The translations under genes and the position numbers were made by a program. From NCBI GenBank assembly GCA_023732985.1, contig GCA_023732985.1_3946.1: a stretch of DNA of 64,000 bases. The stretch is one strand, 5' to 3'. The notes below the pieces were generated by a model, which saw only the letters and a program-made list of their open reading frames with translations, had not been told where the DNA came from and did not search any database. Source of the DNA: a phage. Positions 28,406 through 32,375 of this stretch are shown piece by piece. How positions within the stretch are numbered: position 1 is the stretch's first letter; each line of letters begins with the position of its first letter.

Positions 28406-28731
28406 TGACTGGTATCACTGCAATCATTGCCATTTTCGCGCTATATAAGGCATATAAAGCCTATAATCTAGCAAATAAGGCAATCACACAGCAGGTTAGC
28501 AATAACCTTGTAGAAAGCTTTCTAGGACGTCTCAGTGATGAGCAAATAAAGCGGCTAGAGATGAGCTTCAGATATAAAGCCAAAACCTATCAGATAAGTG
28601 ACATCTTCAAAGATGATTTTCAGTTAGTTGATGATTATAATTCTCTGATAAATGCTTTAAACATCAGTGACTTGAAAGACTATCATGCTGTAATTGTTCA
28701 AGAGTTGAGCAAACGAAAACAAAATTCTTGA
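28399..28731 (+). CDS. hypothetical membrane protein (array ORF 7)
   Basis: overlaps upstream stop; N-terminal hydrophobic helix. Confidence 0.5.
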   Translation: MLMTGITAIIAIFALYKAYKAYNLANKAITQQVSNNLVESFLGRLSDEQIKRLEMSFRYKAKTYQISDIFKDDFQLVDDYNSLINALNISDLKDYHAVIVQELSKRKQNS

Positions 28732-28819
28732 CACTGATTTTTAGATAGATTAAATTACACATCAACGGGGAGGGAATGACCTTCCCCACTAAATAAAATC
28801 CTAAACTGGAGATTCTAAA
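28728..28819 (+). promoter_or_regulatory. leader module type B (promoter, 5' hairpin GGGGAGGG...CCTTCCCC, conserved initiation region)
   Basis: TTGACA-17-TAAATT at 28728-28756; hairpin 28767-28787. Confidence 0.55.
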
Positions 28820-29092
28820 ATGTATACTACTAACAACGGTCGCACTTTAAATGTCACACTACGTCACTATGTAGATGGTGTCATGCACTTTGAAGACTTA
28901 CAAGCTGAACAACATATCTTAGATTGGCAAGTCGCAGGACTCCAAAAAACTGCTACCGGATACGGTAAAAAGATTCCAACCAGTTGGAAAGTACACTATG
29001 AAGGCCGTTTGCGCAGAATTTATCAGGATGTGCAAAGCAATAGTGCATCGAGTTACATTATAGTAAAAGGTAAAAAACTGCATTTAGTGTAA
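28820..29092 (+). CDS. hypothetical protein (array ORF 8)
   Basis: type B leader. Confidence 0.5.
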   Translation: MYTTNNGRTLNVTLRHYVDGVMHFEDLQAEQHILDWQVAGLQKTATGYGKKIPTSWKVHYEGRLRRIYQDVQSNSASSYIIVKGKKLHLV

Positions 29093-29097
29093 AGTAC

Positions 29098-29177
29098 TTT
29101 ACAGGGGGCTTATAGTTCGATAAAGTAAGCCCCAGATAAAGAGCTTTACCACTCAATCCTAAATTGGAGATTCTAAA
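29098..29177 (+). promoter_or_regulatory. leader module type A
   Basis: hairpin 29104-29133 plus conserved initiation region. Confidence 0.55.
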
Positions 29178-29582
29178 ATGGCTATTAATAACCGTGAATT
29201 ATCAATCTTAAAAGCACGCTTGACCGTTAATCGAATCAATATCATGACGTCATCAGCGCCTGATGAAACATTGCACAACATTATCGGAAAGATTCAAAGC
29301 GTTATCTTAGACGTTGAAAACGTAAAAAGTTCATTGGCTGACGTTGCAGCAGGTATCACGCTAGACGGTGCGCAATATGAAATGGCTGACATGTTAGGCA
29401 AATCGAAGGTAATGAATAAAGAGCTTGATTTAAAAATGTTTCGATTTGCCGTGAAAGTATGGTTATCTGTCGAGTATGACGCTAATTTTGCAATCGCTGA
29501 TTTCTTTGCCACTTGGTTACAACGTAATTTGACAAATCATGATTTTCGTGATGTCTGTGATGCAATTTATGCAGAACTTTAA
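29178..29582 (+). CDS. hypothetical protein (array ORF 9)
   Basis: type A leader. Confidence 0.5.
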   Translation: MAINNRELSILKARLTVNRINIMTSSAPDETLHNIIGKIQSVILDVENVKSSLADVAAGITLDGAQYEMADMLGKSKVMNKELDLKMFRFAVKVWLSVEYDANFAIADFFATWLQRNLTNHDFRDVCDAIYAEL

Positions 29583-29591
29583 AAAATTTTG

Positions 29592-29683
29592 TTGACACTG
29601 ATTTTTAGATAGATTAAATTACACATCAACGGGGAGGGAATGACCTTCCCCACTAAATAAAATCCTAAACTGGAGATTCTAAA
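29592..29683 (+). promoter_or_regulatory. leader module type B
   Basis: TTGACA-17-TAAATT at 29592-29620; hairpin 29631-29651; near-identical to the 28728 copy. Confidence 0.55.
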
Positions 29684-29881
29684 ATGGCTATTATTAACGG
29701 CTTACACATTGAAACAACTCACATCAAAGATATTAAAGTTGGTGATGTAGTCCTTTCCCACGGAGTAGAAAAAACAGTCACTGCAAAGGATATCAAAGAT
29801 GATTCTTTCATGGGTAGAACTCTCTTCGGTGATTCTTATTGCTTAGGTTATCTTGCAGTTTTAAAAGTTGTCAAAAATTAA
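29684..29881 (+). CDS. small hypothetical protein (array ORF 10)
   Basis: type B leader. Confidence 0.5.
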   Translation: MAIINGLHIETTHIKDIKVGDVVLSHGVEKTVTAKDIKDDSFMGRTLFGDSYCLGYLAVLKVVKN

Positions 29882-29893
29882 CTGATAAAGTAC

Positions 29894-29974
29894 TTTACAA
29901 GGGGTTTATAGTTCGATAAAGTAAGCCCCAGATAAAGAGCTTTACCACTAAATCCTTAAACTAGGAGATTCAAA
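29894..29974 (+). promoter_or_regulatory. leader module type A (stem with G-T wobble)
   Basis: hairpin 29901-29929, GGGGTTTA/TAAGCCCC; the mismatch is a G-U pair only in RNA. Confidence 0.55.
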
Positions 29975-30517
29975 ATGAAATGCTTTCACGGTACTACTCA
30001 AGAAAACTTTATCAACCTGATTAATAACGGTGATAAACCATCAGGTGTATGGAATTGTTCGGATATGGACGGCAATTTTTACGTGTACCCAGAAAATAAA
30101 CTCTATGGTGATGATGAGGAAGAGATAGCATCGGAAGGTATCCAGCAAGCTCTAGGAAATGCCACTATCACGGCAGCTTTTCAGATGAAAACTCAAAATA
30201 TTGTTATCTTAGAACTCGACATTCCAGAGGATGAGCTAAATGATGATTATTCTTGTGATAACATGTCAAATATAGCAAGCTTTACAGAGTACTTTGATGT
30301 AAATTGGATTAAAAAGGTCTATACAACAGAGTTCAACGCTATGTATTCACCTTTTTGTCTCCCTTCACTGGATAACCCAAATTTAAATTATCTTGATGAA
30401 ACATTGGAGCTACTTGCTAAAAGTATCCAACAATCCGACAGTATTCAGGTTTTTTGTGACATCATGGATACACTGACAGAAAACATTGTAGAGAGTGATT
30501 TAAAGGTCTTTTTCTAA
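29975..30517 (+). CDS. acidic hypothetical protein (array ORF 11)
   Basis: type A leader; strongly acidic 180 aa; followed by terminator. Confidence 0.5.
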   Translation: MKCFHGTTQENFINLINNGDKPSGVWNCSDMDGNFYVYPENKLYGDDEEEIASEGIQQALGNATITAAFQMKTQNIVILELDIPEDELNDDYSCDNMSNIASFTEYFDVNWIKKVYTTEFNAMYSPFCLPSLDNPNLNYLDETLELLAKSIQQSDSIQVFCDIMDTLTENIVESDLKVFF

Positions 30518-30550
30518 AAACCTATACATTCACCTTATAAACACTGATTA

Positions 30551-30817: not shown

Positions 30818-30849
30818 ACAAGCCTGATAAAAGCTTGTAGAGTGTCAAT

Positions 30850-30908
30850 CAACGGGGAGGGAATAACCTTCCCCACTAAGTAAAGTCCTTAAACTAGGAG
30901 ATTCTAAA
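30850..30908 (+). promoter_or_regulatory. leader module type B (hairpin plus initiation region)
   Basis: hairpin 30854-30874 plus CCTTAAACTAGGAGATTCTAAAATG. Confidence 0.5.
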
Positions 30909-31250
30909 ATGGCTTATGTAACTGTAATTACCGATAAAGAGAATTCATCTTGGTCAACTCAGGTTAGTGATAAGATGTCACCTATGCAGTGCCTAAAATA
31001 CTTTGAGCAGTGGAACAAAGGCGAGGATGTAAGCCCCTTTCAGGTAATGCAAATCATCCATACAGATAACGAAGGGAATAAAACGACACTGAATAGTGAG
31101 TACTATGCAAGCCGTTTTGAAACGAGAAGTAAAACAATGAAGCTTTTACGTGAATCCGGCTATTCTCACATTGCCGCGCTAATATGGGATGACCTGCTGA
31201 AAAGCCAGCGTATCAGCTATGTAAAACCTGAAAAAATATTCATCAGTTAA
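30909..31250 (+). CDS. hypothetical protein (array ORF 13)
   Basis: type B leader. Confidence 0.5.
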   Translation: MAYVTVITDKENSSWSTQVSDKMSPMQCLKYFEQWNKGEDVSPFQVMQIIHTDNEGNKTTLNSEYYASRFETRSKTMKLLRESGYSHIAALIWDDLLKSQRISYVKPEKIFIS

Positions 31251-31379
31251 TCAATAACTTATAAAAAACTTTAAAAAATTACTTGACGATACCCCTTGAC
31301 AATAGTACATTTGTTCGAGGGGGTTTATCTAAAAGGGATTCACTTAAAAGATTCTTTATAGATAAACTTAAAAAATTGC

Positions 31380-31408
31380 TTGCAATCATCTTCCAAAAAC
31401 TTTATAGT
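31380..31408 (+). promoter_or_regulatory. sigma70-like promoter
   Basis: TTGCAA, 17 bp spacer, TATAGT. Confidence 0.45.
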
Positions 31409-31450
31409 TTATCTCAAGCAATAATGCTTTCCTAAACTGGAGATTCAAAA

Positions 31451-31981
31451 ATGAACAAGTTCAAAGCTATCAACTACATTCGCTCAAATAGTGTCATGTC
31501 TAAGCCTGTTAAGGATACCTACGAATTTCGTTGCAATGGCGAACACTTTGCTACCATCACCAAATCAAACAACGGGGCTTATTATATCCATCGTCGTAAT
31601 GTTTCTACGGTTGTAGTTTCTAACTTTATGCAAGCTGTAGCGGAACTCCTCCCGCTCTTCTTAGAAAAGTATGCCGTACAGTGTGAAAGTGTTCGTGAAT
31701 GCACTAAAACAGTGTTAAACGGTTATCGTATGGCCTATGAGCGCTCTTTAAAGAATCTCAATAAATACTACAAAGCACCGGAAGGTACTTCATCCACAGC
31801 CTACGGGGTAGGGGGCTTCAATGTCAGCCTTTACGAAGTGGAAGAAATCGAGCTTTATGACCATCGCCCAAATGGTTACGCTAAGACACTGGGAGATGGG
31901 TTAATGCTGAATATCAAGAACTTAGAAAAAACTTTAAGAGAAATTGAAAAAGATATTGACGAGACAATCAAAAGTCTGTAA
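31451..31981 (+). CDS. hypothetical protein (array ORF 14)
   Basis: conserved initiation region CCTAAACTGGAGATTCAAAAATG. Confidence 0.5.
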   Translation: MNKFKAINYIRSNSVMSKPVKDTYEFRCNGEHFATITKSNNGAYYIHRRNVSTVVVSNFMQAVAELLPLFLEKYAVQCESVRECTKTVLNGYRMAYERSLKNLNKYYKAPEGTSSTAYGVGGFNVSLYEVEEIELYDHRPNGYAKTLGDGLMLNIKNLEKTLREIEKDIDETIKSL

Positions 31982-31989
31982 ATTATCAA

Positions 31990-32046
31990 TCAACGGGGAG
32001 GGAATAACCTTCCCCACTAAGTAAAGTCCTAAACTGGAGATTCAAA
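31990..32046 (+). promoter_or_regulatory. leader module type B (hairpin plus initiation region)
   Basis: hairpin 31995-32015. Confidence 0.5.
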
Positions 32047-32310
32047 ATGGAACACGTAGAACTGACCACACTCTTACAAATCGCAACCGACAAGGAAGAC
32101 GTAGCATTATTTCACCGTATCGAAAGTGATTTGTTCAATGGTGAAATCATCAAAGAATCTTACGAAGTTGTCGGATTCAAAGATGGTAAAGCATTTGGCT
32201 TTTTTGACCTCGACAAAAGCAAAGCGGTTACAAAGTACGATGTTCTATCTTGTGAGATTCTTACAAAATACAACGAAAAAAGGCTTGCAACATACGCCAA
32301 CATGCAGTAA
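32047..32310 (+). CDS. small hypothetical protein (array ORF 15)
   Basis: type B leader. Confidence 0.5.
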   Translation: MEHVELTTLLQIATDKEDVALFHRIESDLFNGEIIKESYEVVGFKDGKAFGFFDLDKSKAVTKYDVLSCEILTKYNEKRLATYANMQ

Positions 32311-32317
32311 ATTACTA

Positions 32318-32375
32318 ATCAACGGGGAGGGATGACCTCCCTACTAAATAAAACCTTAAACTAGGAGATTCTAAA
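32318..32375 (+). promoter_or_regulatory. leader module type B (diverged hairpin)
   Basis: GGGGAGGGATGACCTCCCTAC plus conserved initiation region. Confidence 0.45.

What the first reader, a model, noticed from the sequence alone, without database searches (positions are those of the whole stretch)
28728..32345. Type B leader: promoter followed directly by a 5'-terminal GC-rich hairpin
TTGACA-17 bp-TAAATT (28728-28756, 29592-29620) is followed within about 10 nt by GGGGAGGG-loop-CCTTCCCC (28767-28787, 29631-29651; hairpin-only copies at 30854-30874, 31995-32015 and 32321-32345). A transcript starting after the -10 box would begin almost exactly at the hairpin, the arrangement known to protect mRNA 5' ends from RNase E. 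The last copy has a diverged stem.
Basis: partly seen in the sequence, partly recalled or inferred. Interest (0 to 1): 0.5.

Follow-up and report, generated by a model that had tools for sequence, protein, structure and literature searches.

The report
Early promoter–hairpin cassettes in Felix-O1-like phage
The repeats are real: a Felix O1-like phage puts a host-type promoter, a short GC-rich hairpin and a ribosome-binding site in front of many small early genes of unknown function. This cassette design is already known from T4-like phages, and here it also marks the points where such genes are gained and lost.

Summary
The window is a Felixounavirus (Felix O1-like) genome. The GGGGAGGG-loop-CCTTCCCC hairpins are at the stated coordinates and are far beyond chance.

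All five hairpins, plus a sixth degenerate copy at 26135-26215, have a sigma-70-like -35/17 bp/-10 ending 10-12 nt before the stem and a GGAG ribosome site about 20 nt after it.

Across 15 sequences from three Ounavirinae genera, 52 of 59 distinct cassettes keep that 10-11 nt register. The stem changes but stays paired (GGGGAGGG/CCTTCCCC, GGGAGG/CCTCCC, GGGGC/GCCCC, GGGC/GCCC, GGGA/TCCC). An Erwinia relative has the same layout with an unrelated stem.

The tail after the stem has only 2 T in 8, so it is not a canonical terminator, although one GenBank record annotates it as one.

Felix O1 lacks four window genes. At both deletion points its single cassette is a chimera of the window's two flanking cassettes.

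This matches the PeSL cassettes (promoter-early stem-loop) of T4-type phages, which have not been reported for Felix O1-like phages. The 5'-end protection idea is plausible but unproven: the predicted start leaves about 3 unpaired nucleotides, which is borderline. No mapped transcription start sites exist.

The parts
26135..26215 (+). Sixth, degenerate type B cassette and first promoter of the small-ORF cluster. TTGACA-17-TACTAT (26135-26163), ttgcatcagac, weak stem GGC-AAGCTA-GCC (about 26176-26187), GGAG, ATG at 26213.
   Evidence: covariance model hit at 26158-26203, E = 0.0066. It lies after a terminator and about 400 nt of non-coding DNA, so no ORF sits directly upstream.
28728..28822 (+). 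Type B cassette 1. -35 TTGACA 28728-28733 (contains the TGA stop of ORF 28399-28731); -10 TAAATT 28751-28756; predicted start about A28764; hairpin 28767-28787; GGAG 28808-28811; ATG 28820 (90-aa ORF).
29592..29686 (+). Type B cassette 2. TTGACA-17-TAAATT 29592-29620; hairpin 29631-29651; GGAG 29672-29675; ATG 29684 (65-aa ORF).
30815..30911 (+). Type B cassette 3. TAGACA-17-TAGAGT 30815-30843 (the TAG is the stop of ORF 30584-30817); hairpin 30854-30874; GGAG 30897-30900; ATG 30909 (113-aa ORF).
31956..32049 (+). Type B cassette 4. TTGACG-17-TAAATT 31956-31984 (-35 inside ORF 31451-31981; its TAA stop is the start of the -10); hairpin 31995-32015; GGAG 32036-32039; ATG 32047 (87-aa ORF).
32285..32378 (+). 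Type B cassette 5. TTGCAA-17-TAAATT 32285-32313 (the TAA stop of ORF 32047-32310 is the start of the -10); diverged hairpin GGGGAGG-GATGA-CCTCCCT 32324-32342; GGAG 32364-32367; ATG 32376 (82-aa ORF).
26605..29983 (+). Interleaved sister cassettes of type A. TTTACA-17-TAAAGT-like promoters at 26613, 27083, 27429, 28031, 29098 and 29894. The hairpin (GGGGCTTA..TAAGCCCC) spans the spacer and the -10, followed by AGATAAAGAGCTTTA and the same ribosome-binding region.
   Evidence: (family D1). These correspond to the PeSL subclass 'stem-loop overlapping the -10'.
31380..31453 (+). Hairpin-less promoter variant. TTGCAA-17-TATAGT 31380-31408, then the ribosome site and ATG 31451. The orthologous gene in most relatives carries a type B cassette instead.
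32635..32688 (+). End of the cluster. A hairpin with no promoter and no ribosome site (GGGGCT-AAAT-AGCCCC, 32635-32650), then a canonical terminator (AGCTCC..GGGGCT plus T7, 32663-32688).
   Evidence: It shows what a real terminator looks like in this genome, and that a cassette-type hairpin can occur at a 3' end.

Best explanation
Each copy is a self-contained early-gene expression cassette of the PeSL kind (promoter-early stem-loop).

How it is built:
- A host sigma-70 promoter whose hexamers often double as the stop codon of the gene upstream.
- A conserved start region, TC|AAC.
- A GC-rich hairpin transcribed from about +4 to +24.
- An A/U-rich unstructured spacer.
- A strong GGAG ribosome site 7-8 nt before the ATG of a small gene of unknown function.

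How it most likely works (inferred):
- Host RNA polymerase starts 2-4 nt before the stem, so every such mRNA begins with the same stable hairpin.
- That hairpin limits 5'-end-dependent decay, either by restricting RppH/RNase E access or by blocking RNase E scanning.
- It also insulates the ribosome site from whatever lies upstream.
- In read-through transcripts the same hairpin may act as a 3' barrier for the upstream message.

Second role (shown by comparison): because 60-100 bp of the cassette is repeated many times in one orientation, it is the homology patch where recombination deletes, inserts or swaps the small genes.
For: Identity of the genome: Felixounavirus, 86-90% identical to many records, and every gene under the match is 'hypothetical'. 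PHROGs lists all tested ORFs as unknown function.

Promoter:
- Hexamers sit at a fixed register in all six window copies.
- 57 of 59 distinct cassettes reach at least 8 of 12 matches with a 17-bp spacer.
- The promoter parts are unrelated in sequence and are embedded in different coding 3' ends.
- Felix O1 RT-PCR puts ORFs 16, 20, 21 and 22 at maximum 5 min after infection (PMC3185647).

Hairpin:
- All 53 distinct leaders fold, median -13 kcal/mol, with 3-5 unpaired 5' nt under the assumed start.
- There are about 30 distinct stem-loops in several stem families, with two-sided changes at pairs 4 and 5.
- Erwinia phage phiEa21-4 has TTTACA-18-TATACT, then 9 nt, then the unrelated stem GGTTCAG/CTGAACC, then AC.

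Not a canonical terminator:
- Only 2 T in the 8 nt after the stem, against T5-T7 after the window's real terminators.
- No + strand terminator-like site was found in the region.

The first cassette of the cluster has no ORF upstream and follows a terminator, yet it carries the hairpin in all relatives examined.

Shuffling:
- Gene presence/absence is bounded by cassettes.
- Felix O1's single cassettes are left/right chimeras of the window's flanking pairs.

Match to published PeSLs:
- Same component list, including G-tract/C-tract stems with G-T pairs and a subclass with the stem-loop just downstream of the -10.
- RB49's own cassettes, read here, have the same design.
Against: - No transcription start site or half-life data exist for any Felix O1-like phage in the searched literature.
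- The predicted start leaves 3 unpaired nucleotides with a purine at position 2. By PMC8833179 that is already a usable RppH/RNase E substrate.
- Orthologous genes carry type A cassettes, whose hairpin covers the -10 and so is not in their own mRNA, or no hairpin at all. The window's first copy has a decayed stem. The 5' hairpin is therefore dispensable.
- A cassette-type hairpin without a promoter follows the last gene, and phiEa21-4 has intercistronic hairpins with no evident promoter. Both hint at a role at 3' ends.
- The formal covariation test is weak because the stems are G-runs against C-runs: score 0.105 against 0.086 in shuffles, only 2 pairs with two-sided changes, and slid controls are almost as well paired.
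- Strand asymmetry is modest: the + strand is more stable in 18 of 33 hairpins and the - strand in 14.
- The constant 10-nt spacing could partly reflect common descent of the repeat.
Confidence: 0.6

Rival explanations
1. The hairpin acts on transcripts coming from upstream, not on its own promoter's mRNA. It would be an attenuator or terminator that isolates each cassette, or a 3' stem that blocks exonucleases and stabilises the upstream message after cleavage in the A/U-rich spacer. The position next to the promoter would then be incidental.
For: - This is the function proposed for PeSL stem-loops. One such stem-loop reduced a downstream lacZ reporter about as much as rrnB T1 (PMC2839356).
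- GenBank record MZ726791 annotates the very same hairpins as rho-independent terminators.
- Type A cassettes place the hairpin over the -10, where it can only be transcribed from upstream, and types A and B replace each other in front of orthologous genes.
- A promoter-less hairpin follows the last gene.
- phiEa21-4 has promoter-less intercistronic hairpins.
Against: - There is no U-tract (2 T in 8), whereas this genome's real terminators have T5-T7. The consensus scan finds no + strand terminator here.
- A terminator placed after its own start site would also stop its own mRNA.
- The first cassette of the cluster has no gene upstream to protect and sits 400 nt after a canonical terminator, yet it keeps the hairpin in relatives.
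- Nearly all type B hairpins come with a promoter in a fixed register.
Confidence: 0.25
2. The inverted repeat works at the DNA level. It would be a recognition or pausing site that targets recombination, with the GGGG...CCCC / GGGC...GCCC motif as a crossover hot spot, as the PeSL authors speculated. It would not be an RNA structure.
For: - Both Felix O1 / window crossovers map to the roughly 40-50 bp that includes the stem.
- The PeSL discussion cites T4 deletions associated with GGGC/GCCC.
- The same GGGC/GCCC and GGGG/CCCC stems occur here.
Against: - The crossover intervals are simply the longest shared stretch, as expected for ordinary homologous recombination.
- Stem sequences differ between lineages while pairing is kept. 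That argues for structure rather than a protein's sequence motif.
- The commonest stem contains a G-T pair that is a mismatch on the other strand.
Confidence: 0.07
3. The hairpin tunes translation. Its 3' arm (CCUCC / CCUUCC) mimics the anti-Shine-Dalgarno sequence and could pair with the downstream GGAG unless the 5' arm (GGGAGG) holds it.
For: The commonest stem arms are GGGAGG and CCUCC-like, and a GGAG ribosome site lies about 20 nt downstream.
Against: - Other stem families (GGGC/GCCC, GGGA/UCCC, GGGGC/GCCCC, GGTTCAG/CTGAACC) have no such mimicry but occupy the same position.
- Minimum-energy folds leave the GGAG region essentially open.
Confidence: 0.04
4. The hairpin has no function of its own and is carried along as part of a repeated promoter/leader sequence.
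For: - The window copies are close paralogues.
- Some lineages tolerate decayed or absent stems.
Against: - About 30 distinct stem-loops all remain hairpins at the same position across four genera.
- This includes stems with no sequence similarity to one another.
Confidence: 0.04

Closest known systems
PeSL (promoter-early stem-loop) cassettes of T4-type phages RB49/phi1, PST and nt-1 (Arbiol et al. 2010, PMC2839356; Comeau et al. 2014, PMC4122927)
   Same: - Same component list: the upstream stop codon in an AT-rich stretch, sigma-70-like -35/-10, a G-tract/C-tract stem-loop with G-T pairs, then the ribosome site and start codon.
[quoted passage not shown]
- Clustered in front of small genes of unknown function in a plastic early region.
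- Indels between close relatives are bounded by cassettes.
- phiEa21-4 and RB49 cassettes even share CC[AG]TCGAAAC right after the -10 or stem.
   Different: - The host genome is a Felix O1-like myovirus (Ounavirinae), not a T4-type phage (Straboviridae). Among the papers held in the searched library, the only phage papers using the term 'PeSLs' concern T4-like or other non-Felix phages.
- The cassettes share no blastn-detectable similarity outside Ounavirinae.
- The published view makes the stem-loop a terminator/attenuator. For the type B copies the position and the missing U-tract fit a 5' leader structure better.
- Promoter activity, terminator activity and mini-circles were shown experimentally for RB49/phi1 and not here.
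5'-terminal stem-loop mRNA stabilisers of E. coli (ompA and papA leaders; Emory, Bouvet & Belasco 1992, listed in the reference list of PMC3997798)
   Same: A stable hairpin very near the 5' end of an mRNA, followed by an unstructured leader and a strong ribosome site. Stem sequence is unimportant and structure is kept.
   Different: - Those elements were defined by mapped 5' ends and measured half-lives. Neither exists here.
- Protection needs fewer than about 2-3 unpaired 5' nucleotides (PMC8833179), and the predicted overhang here is 3.
- These are repeated, mobile cassettes rather than single-gene leaders.
Morons of lambdoid phages (a gene with its own promoter and terminator)
   Same: Single small accessory genes that bring their own expression signals.
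   Different: - Morons are not flanked by a conserved repeat that mediates their movement, and they are often in the opposite orientation (discussion in PMC2839356).
- Here the cassettes are co-oriented and are themselves the crossover sites.
Public annotation of the same element: 'promoter' plus 'rho-independent terminator (WebGeSTer)' in Escherichia phage vB_EcoM_ASO1A (MZ726791), and 'direct repeats' in the Felix O1 genome paper (PMC3185647)
   Same: Exactly the same sequences. The 39-bp Felix O1 repeat TTGACACTGGTTTTTAGATAGATTAAATTACACATCAAC is the promoter half.
   Different: - The Felix O1 paper gave no function and did not list these among its promoters.
- The terminator label is a software call on a hairpin without a U-tract that lies 10 nt after a promoter.

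Membership tests
PeSL cassettes (T4-type phages) | Sigma-70-like promoter (-35/-10, about 17-bp spacer) with an AT-rich upstream region | tested here: met
   - All six window copies have it.
- 57 of 59 distinct cassettes in 15 genomes reach at least 8 of 12 matches.
- A/T-rich runs precede the -35.
- This is a sequence match only. Activity was not measured.
PeSL cassettes (T4-type phages) | Adjacent stable stem-loop, typically a G-tract then a C-tract, with G-T pairs, at one of several positions relative to the promoter | tested here: met
   - GGGGAGGG/CCTTCCCC and its variants.
- Type B matches the published 'downstream of the -10' subclass and type A the 'overlapping the -10' subclass.
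- One relative has a stem inside the spacer (Silverhawkium).
PeSL cassettes (T4-type phages) | Shine-Dalgarno sequence and start codon of a downstream gene at the 3' end, and the stop codon of the upstream gene at the 5' end | tested here: met
   - GGAG lies 7-8 nt before the ATG in every copy.
- Stop codons lie inside the -35 (TGA in TTGACA, TAG in TAGACA) or the -10 (TAA in TAAATT).
PeSL cassettes (T4-type phages) | Concentrated in a plastic region in front of genes of unknown function | tested here: met
   - The covariance model hits only 26.1-32.4 kb of the 64-kb window.
- All ORFs tested are PHROG 'unknown function' and have no Pfam domain.
PeSL cassettes (T4-type phages) | Indels and replacements between close relatives have their end points in the cassettes | tested here: met
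   - Presence/absence matrix.
- Chimeric single cassettes in Felix O1 at both deletion points.
PeSL cassettes (T4-type phages) | Experimentally shown promoter activity, stem-loop attenuator activity and mini-circle formation | not testable with these tools
   These need reporter assays and PCR on phage DNA. Only crude RT-PCR timing exists for Felix O1.
PeSL cassettes (T4-type phages) | Resides in a T4-type (Straboviridae) genome / sequence homology to the RB49 cassettes | tested here: not met
   - The genome is Felixounavirus, subfamily Ounavirinae.
- blastn of the cassette finds only Ounavirinae.
- Only a short shared motif was seen between RB49 and phiEa21-4.
- It is therefore filed as the same kind of element, not as a homologue.
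5'-terminal stem-loop mRNA stabilisers (ompA type) | Hairpin within 0 to about 2 unpaired nucleotides of the mapped primary 5' end | tested here: inconclusive
   - No mapped start site exists.
- Geometry predicts a start at A, 8 nt after the -10, which leaves 3 unpaired nt (4 in TCAGAC variants).
- The threshold comes from PMC8833179.
5'-terminal stem-loop mRNA stabilisers (ompA type) | Stem-dependent increase in mRNA half-life, dependent on RNase E / RppH | not testable with these tools
   Requires half-life measurements.
Intrinsic (rho-independent) terminators | GC-rich hairpin immediately followed by a U-tract | tested here: not met
   - The tails ACTAAATA and ACTAAGTA have 2 T in 8.
- The window's real terminators have T5-T7.
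- No + strand site was found by the scan.
Known RNA families (Rfam 15) | Match to a curated covariance model | tested here: not met
   - Only tRNAs reach the gathering score in the window.
- There is nothing credible in 25.7-32.8 kb at E up to 1.

The most novel reading that the evidence does not exclude
The promoter-hairpin-ribosome-site cassettes may be a shared, exchangeable 'standard part' that moves between unrelated virulent phage families infecting enterobacteria. Ounavirinae and Krischvirus cassettes share the layout, GGGG/CCCC and GGGC/GCCC stems, and in phiEa21-4 and RB49 the motif CC[AG]TCGAAAC at the start site. On this reading the hairpin would be the specific signal, recognised by a phage or host factor, that both marks early mRNAs and targets cassette recombination in an integron-like way, rather than being a mere patch of homology.
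Probability: 0.1. Interest if true: 0.7.

Novelty: new member of a known kind. Interest (0 to 1): 0.35.

Why it matters
- It extends PeSL-type modular gene shuffling beyond T4-type phages to the Felix O1 group. That group is widely used for Salmonella and E. coli typing, biocontrol and therapy.
- It corrects a public annotation habit of labelling these hairpins 'terminator' directly after a promoter.
- It supplies early promoters for a phage whose transcription programme the genome paper called unknown.
- It offers a clean natural series for testing what a start-site-proximal hairpin does to mRNA life and translation: the same gene with type B, type A or no hairpin, and stems of -3 to -15 kcal/mol.
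- It also identifies safe, naturally used insertion points for engineering these phages.

Tried and rejected
- **Loose collection scan.** The flank-anchored pattern ATCAAC-N15-27-ACTAARTAAA, run on IMG/VR, returned mostly chance hits. Only five loci were Felix-like.
- **MAFFT alignment of 53 leaders.** It misaligned the short-stem families. I built a covariance model and realigned. The formal covariation test on that alignment was weak because G-runs pair with C-runs in any register. The structural argument therefore rests on alignment-free folding and on the distinct stem families.
- **A phage RegB-like endoribonuclease cutting the conserved GGAG.** The gene annotated 'endoribonuclease' in phage mistaenkt corresponds to window ORF 21387-21935. 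That ORF only weakly matches a lytic transglycosylase (SLT) domain. Idea dropped.
- **RNase III site.** Rejected because the stems are only 4-9 bp.
- **Terminator on the minus strand.** Rejected: there are no minus-strand genes here and no T-run.
- **Rfam.** No family matches.
- **Literature search for start-site or RNA-seq data on Felix O1-like phages.** Nothing usable was found.
- **Strand asymmetry of the hairpins as proof of an RNA-level role.** Only modest.

Full report
**What the window is**

Megablast of 27000-33000 finds 257 phage records, almost all Felixounavirus and relatives. Identity is 86-90% over the full length, and every annotated gene under the match is 'hypothetical protein'. 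The window also carries the 25-tRNA cluster typical of Felix O1-like phages.

The finding lies in a run of small + strand ORFs (26.2-32.6 kb). This run follows the rII / kinase / macro-domain genes and ends at a terminator before a 1.6-kb non-coding region.

**Checking the observation**

- TTGACA-17-TAAATT is exact at 28728-28756 and 29592-29620.
- The 25-nt hairpin pattern is exact at four places, against 0 expected. A fifth, diverged copy folds as a 7-bp stem at 32324-32342.
- All five leaders fold into the predicted hairpin, with z-scores of -2.3 to -3.0 against shuffles.

The three other copies have -35/-10-like hexamers with a 17-bp spacer ending exactly 10 nt before the stem:
- TAGACA/TAGAGT at 30815
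- TTGACG/TAAATT at 31956
- TTGCAA/TAAATT at 32285

 Only 0.31% of window positions meet that criterion. The spacer and -35 contexts of these promoters are unrelated to one another and lie inside different coding 3' ends. The upstream stop codons are built into the hexamers: TGA in TTGACA, TAG in TAGACA, TAA in TAAATT.

A sixth, decayed copy opens the cluster at 26135-26215. A covariance model of the leader hits these six places and nothing else in 64 kb, all on the + strand.

**Comparative evidence**

I fetched the homologous region from these phages:
- Felixounavirus: JN01, ASO1A, Felix O1, CL1
- Mooglevirus: Mordin, 3HA14, Silverhawkium
- Suspvirus: SUSP1, mistaenkt
- five IMG/VR Felix-like contigs
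- Kolesnikvirus: Erwinia phage phiEa21-4

In the 15 enterobacterial sequences there are 59 distinct promoter+hairpin combinations:
- In 52 of them the -10 ends 10 or 11 nt before the stem.
- The spacer is 17 bp in 54 of the 59.
- 57 of 59 match the consensus at 8 or more of 12 positions.

The stem-loop itself takes about 30 forms in several families: GGGGAGGG/CCTTCCCC, GGGAGG/CCTCCC, GGGGAGG-GNRA-CTTCCCC, GGGGC/GCCCC, GGGC/GCCC and GGGA/TCCC. It is always preceded by TCAAC or TCAGAC and followed by AC.

If transcription starts at the A after the conserved TC, all 53 distinct leaders fold with the hairpin 3 (45 cases), 4 (6) or 5 (2) nt from the 5' end. Median energy is -13 kcal/mol.

phiEa21-4 has the same layout with an unrelated stem: TTTACA-18-TATACT, 9 nt, GGTTCAG..CTGAACC, AC.

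Two tests gave only weak support:
- The formal covariation test on the model-fitted alignment scored 0.105 against 0.086 ± 0.006 in shuffles. Two pairs show two-sided changes, and slid controls are nearly as well paired, because G-runs face C-runs.
- Strand asymmetry is modest.

Conservation of structure therefore rests mainly on the multiple distinct stems at one fixed position.

**What the hairpin is not**

- The 8 nt after the stem contain 2 T. The window's real terminators (16.8, 21.3, 23.1, 25.8 and 32.7 kb) have T5-T7.
- The consensus scan finds no + strand terminator in the region.
- Rfam has no match.
- A public record (MZ726791) nevertheless annotates 'promoter' and, 10 nt later, 'rho-independent terminator (WebGeSTer)' on exactly these elements.
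- The Felix O1 genome paper listed the promoter half as a 39-bp 'direct repeat' without a function. It also stated that temporal control of transcription in this phage is unknown (PMC3185647).
- In that paper's RT-PCR table, ORFs 16, 20, 21 and 22 peak at 5 min, while 17, 19 and 23 peak at 25 min. This fits early host-polymerase transcription only in part.

**What it is**

The element fits, feature by feature, the PeSL cassettes described in T4-type phages RB49/phi1 (PMC2839356) and in PST and nt-1 (PMC4122927). Shared features are:
- the upstream stop codon in AT-rich sequence
- a sigma-70-like promoter
- then the ribosome site and start codon of a gene of unknown function

The window's interleaved type A cassettes (D1) correspond to the 'stem-loop overlapping the -10' subclass. 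I read RB49's own cassettes and they have the same design. RB49 and phiEa21-4 even share CC[AG]TCGAAAC immediately after the -10 or stem, 4 sense-strand hits each against 0.15-0.25 expected.

All ORFs driven by the cassettes are PHROG 'unknown function' with no Pfam domain.

**Shuffling**

A tblastn matrix of the 16 window ORFs against ten relatives shows presence/absence differences bounded by cassettes. It also shows cassette type switching (B, A or none) in front of orthologous genes.

Felix O1 lacks three ORFs (29684-30817) that lie between two type B cassettes, and one ORF (32047-32310) that lies between two others. At both places its single cassette is a chimera: the left part matches the window's left cassette and the right part matches the right cassette, with the switch inside the shared hairpin core. 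This is the signature described for PeSL-mediated deletion or insertion.

**Mechanism, and how sure**

- *Shown by sequence and comparison:* the cassette architecture, its fixed geometry, maintenance of a hairpin, absence of a U-tract, and its role as an indel boundary.
- *Inferred:* that host RNA polymerase starts at the A of TC|AAC; that the hairpin is therefore 5'-proximal in the cassette's own mRNA; and that it slows 5'-end-dependent decay and/or insulates the ribosome site.

The main caveat is quantitative. RppH and RNase E need at least two unpaired 5' nucleotides and prefer three or more (PMC8833179). The predicted overhang is three (AAC, purine at position 2). Full 'flush-end' protection would require a start 1-3 nt further downstream. 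Otherwise the hairpin would act as an obstacle to RNase E scanning (concept in PMC11194081, abstract seen).

Several facts keep the published view alive, in which the stem-loop acts on read-through transcripts as an attenuator or 3' barrier. The two roles are not exclusive.
- Types A and B are interchangeable in front of orthologous genes.
- Hairpin-less variants exist, such as the promoter at 31380-31408.
- A promoter-less hairpin follows the last gene (32635-32650).
- phiEa21-4 has promoter-less intercistronic hairpins.

I put about 0.85 on 'PeSL-type early promoter cassette', about 0.5 on a 5'-leader role for the hairpin (0.6 for the combined statement as worded), and 0.25 on a purely upstream-acting role.

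**Novelty and score**

The kind of element is known, and the sequences were noticed and partly annotated before. What appears new is recognising them as PeSL-type cassettes in Ounavirinae, with junction evidence for shuffling. Among the 15 library papers that use the term 'PeSLs', the only phage papers concern T4-like or other non-Felix phages. This is a solid but ordinary result: new member of a known kind, interest about 0.35.

Noticed in passing
window 25817-25954 (also 21324-21341): There are three exact copies of TCATTT-N7-GTGCA, each following an A/T run, in the 400-nt non-coding stretch after the macro-domain gene. A one-mismatch copy sits right after the terminator at 21.3 kb. The same motif is repeated four times in phiEa21-4 at 9.3-9.5 kb. 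It may be a phage-specific promoter or operator.
   Followed up: partly
window 25985-26015: A C-rich tract (ccaacccctctccccctcttactccccctctcccc) lies just upstream of the first early promoter. phiEa21-4 has a similar CCCACCCTCCCCTC at the equivalent place.
   Followed up: no
window 33413-33654 (within the non-coding region of about 32700-34300): TGTTAA/TGTTAAGA-type short repeats (iteron-like) lie in a 1.6-kb gene-free region between the + strand early cluster and the - strand genes. phiEa21-4 has the same at 16.5-17.6 kb, and the deposited genome of phage mistaenkt ends here. This may be a replication origin or the genome-end region.
   Followed up: no
window 26605-29983: There are six type A cassettes (TTTACA-17-TAAAGT) with a covarying hairpin GGGGCTTA..TAAGCCCC over the -10. 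Their own transcript would begin AGAUAAAGAGCUUUA. In some copies (for example 28066-28081, GATAAA-GAGA-TTTATC) that sequence is itself a small 5' hairpin.
   Followed up: partly
window 32635-32650: A cassette-type hairpin with no promoter or ribosome site (CAAC-GGGGCTAAATAGCCCC-AGATA, mixing type B and type A flanks) follows the last gene of the cluster. It lies 13 nt before the canonical terminator at 32663-32688.
   Followed up: partly
L131 (RB49 105-135 kb) and L130 (phiEa21-4 9.7-14.3 kb): RB49 PeSLs and phiEa21-4 cassettes share the motif CC[AG]TCGAAAC immediately after the -10 or stem. Each has 4 sense-strand hits against about 0.2 expected. This suggests either a common origin or the same constraint on the initially transcribed sequence.
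   Followed up: partly
window 21387-21935: The homologue of this ORF is annotated 'endoribonuclease' in phages mistaenkt and Mushroom, 'putative lysin' in Silverhawkium and 'Vs.1' in phiEa21-4. Pfam gives only a weak SLT transglycosylase match (E = 9e-4, below the cut-off). The endoribonuclease label looks unsupported.
   Followed up: partly
window 31283-31360: A second promoter-like site (TTGACG-17-TACATT) has a CCCCT..AGGGG stem around it. It is followed by a long inverted repeat, GTTTATCTA...TAGATAAAC, upstream of the hairpin-less promoter of ORF 31451.
   Followed up: no
L002 (MZ726791) 5007-5076, 6058-6127, 8085-8181: This public record annotates a promoter and then, about 10 nt later, a 'rho-independent terminator'. 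That pairing is implausible and comes from software calls on hairpins without a U-tract.
   Followed up: yes
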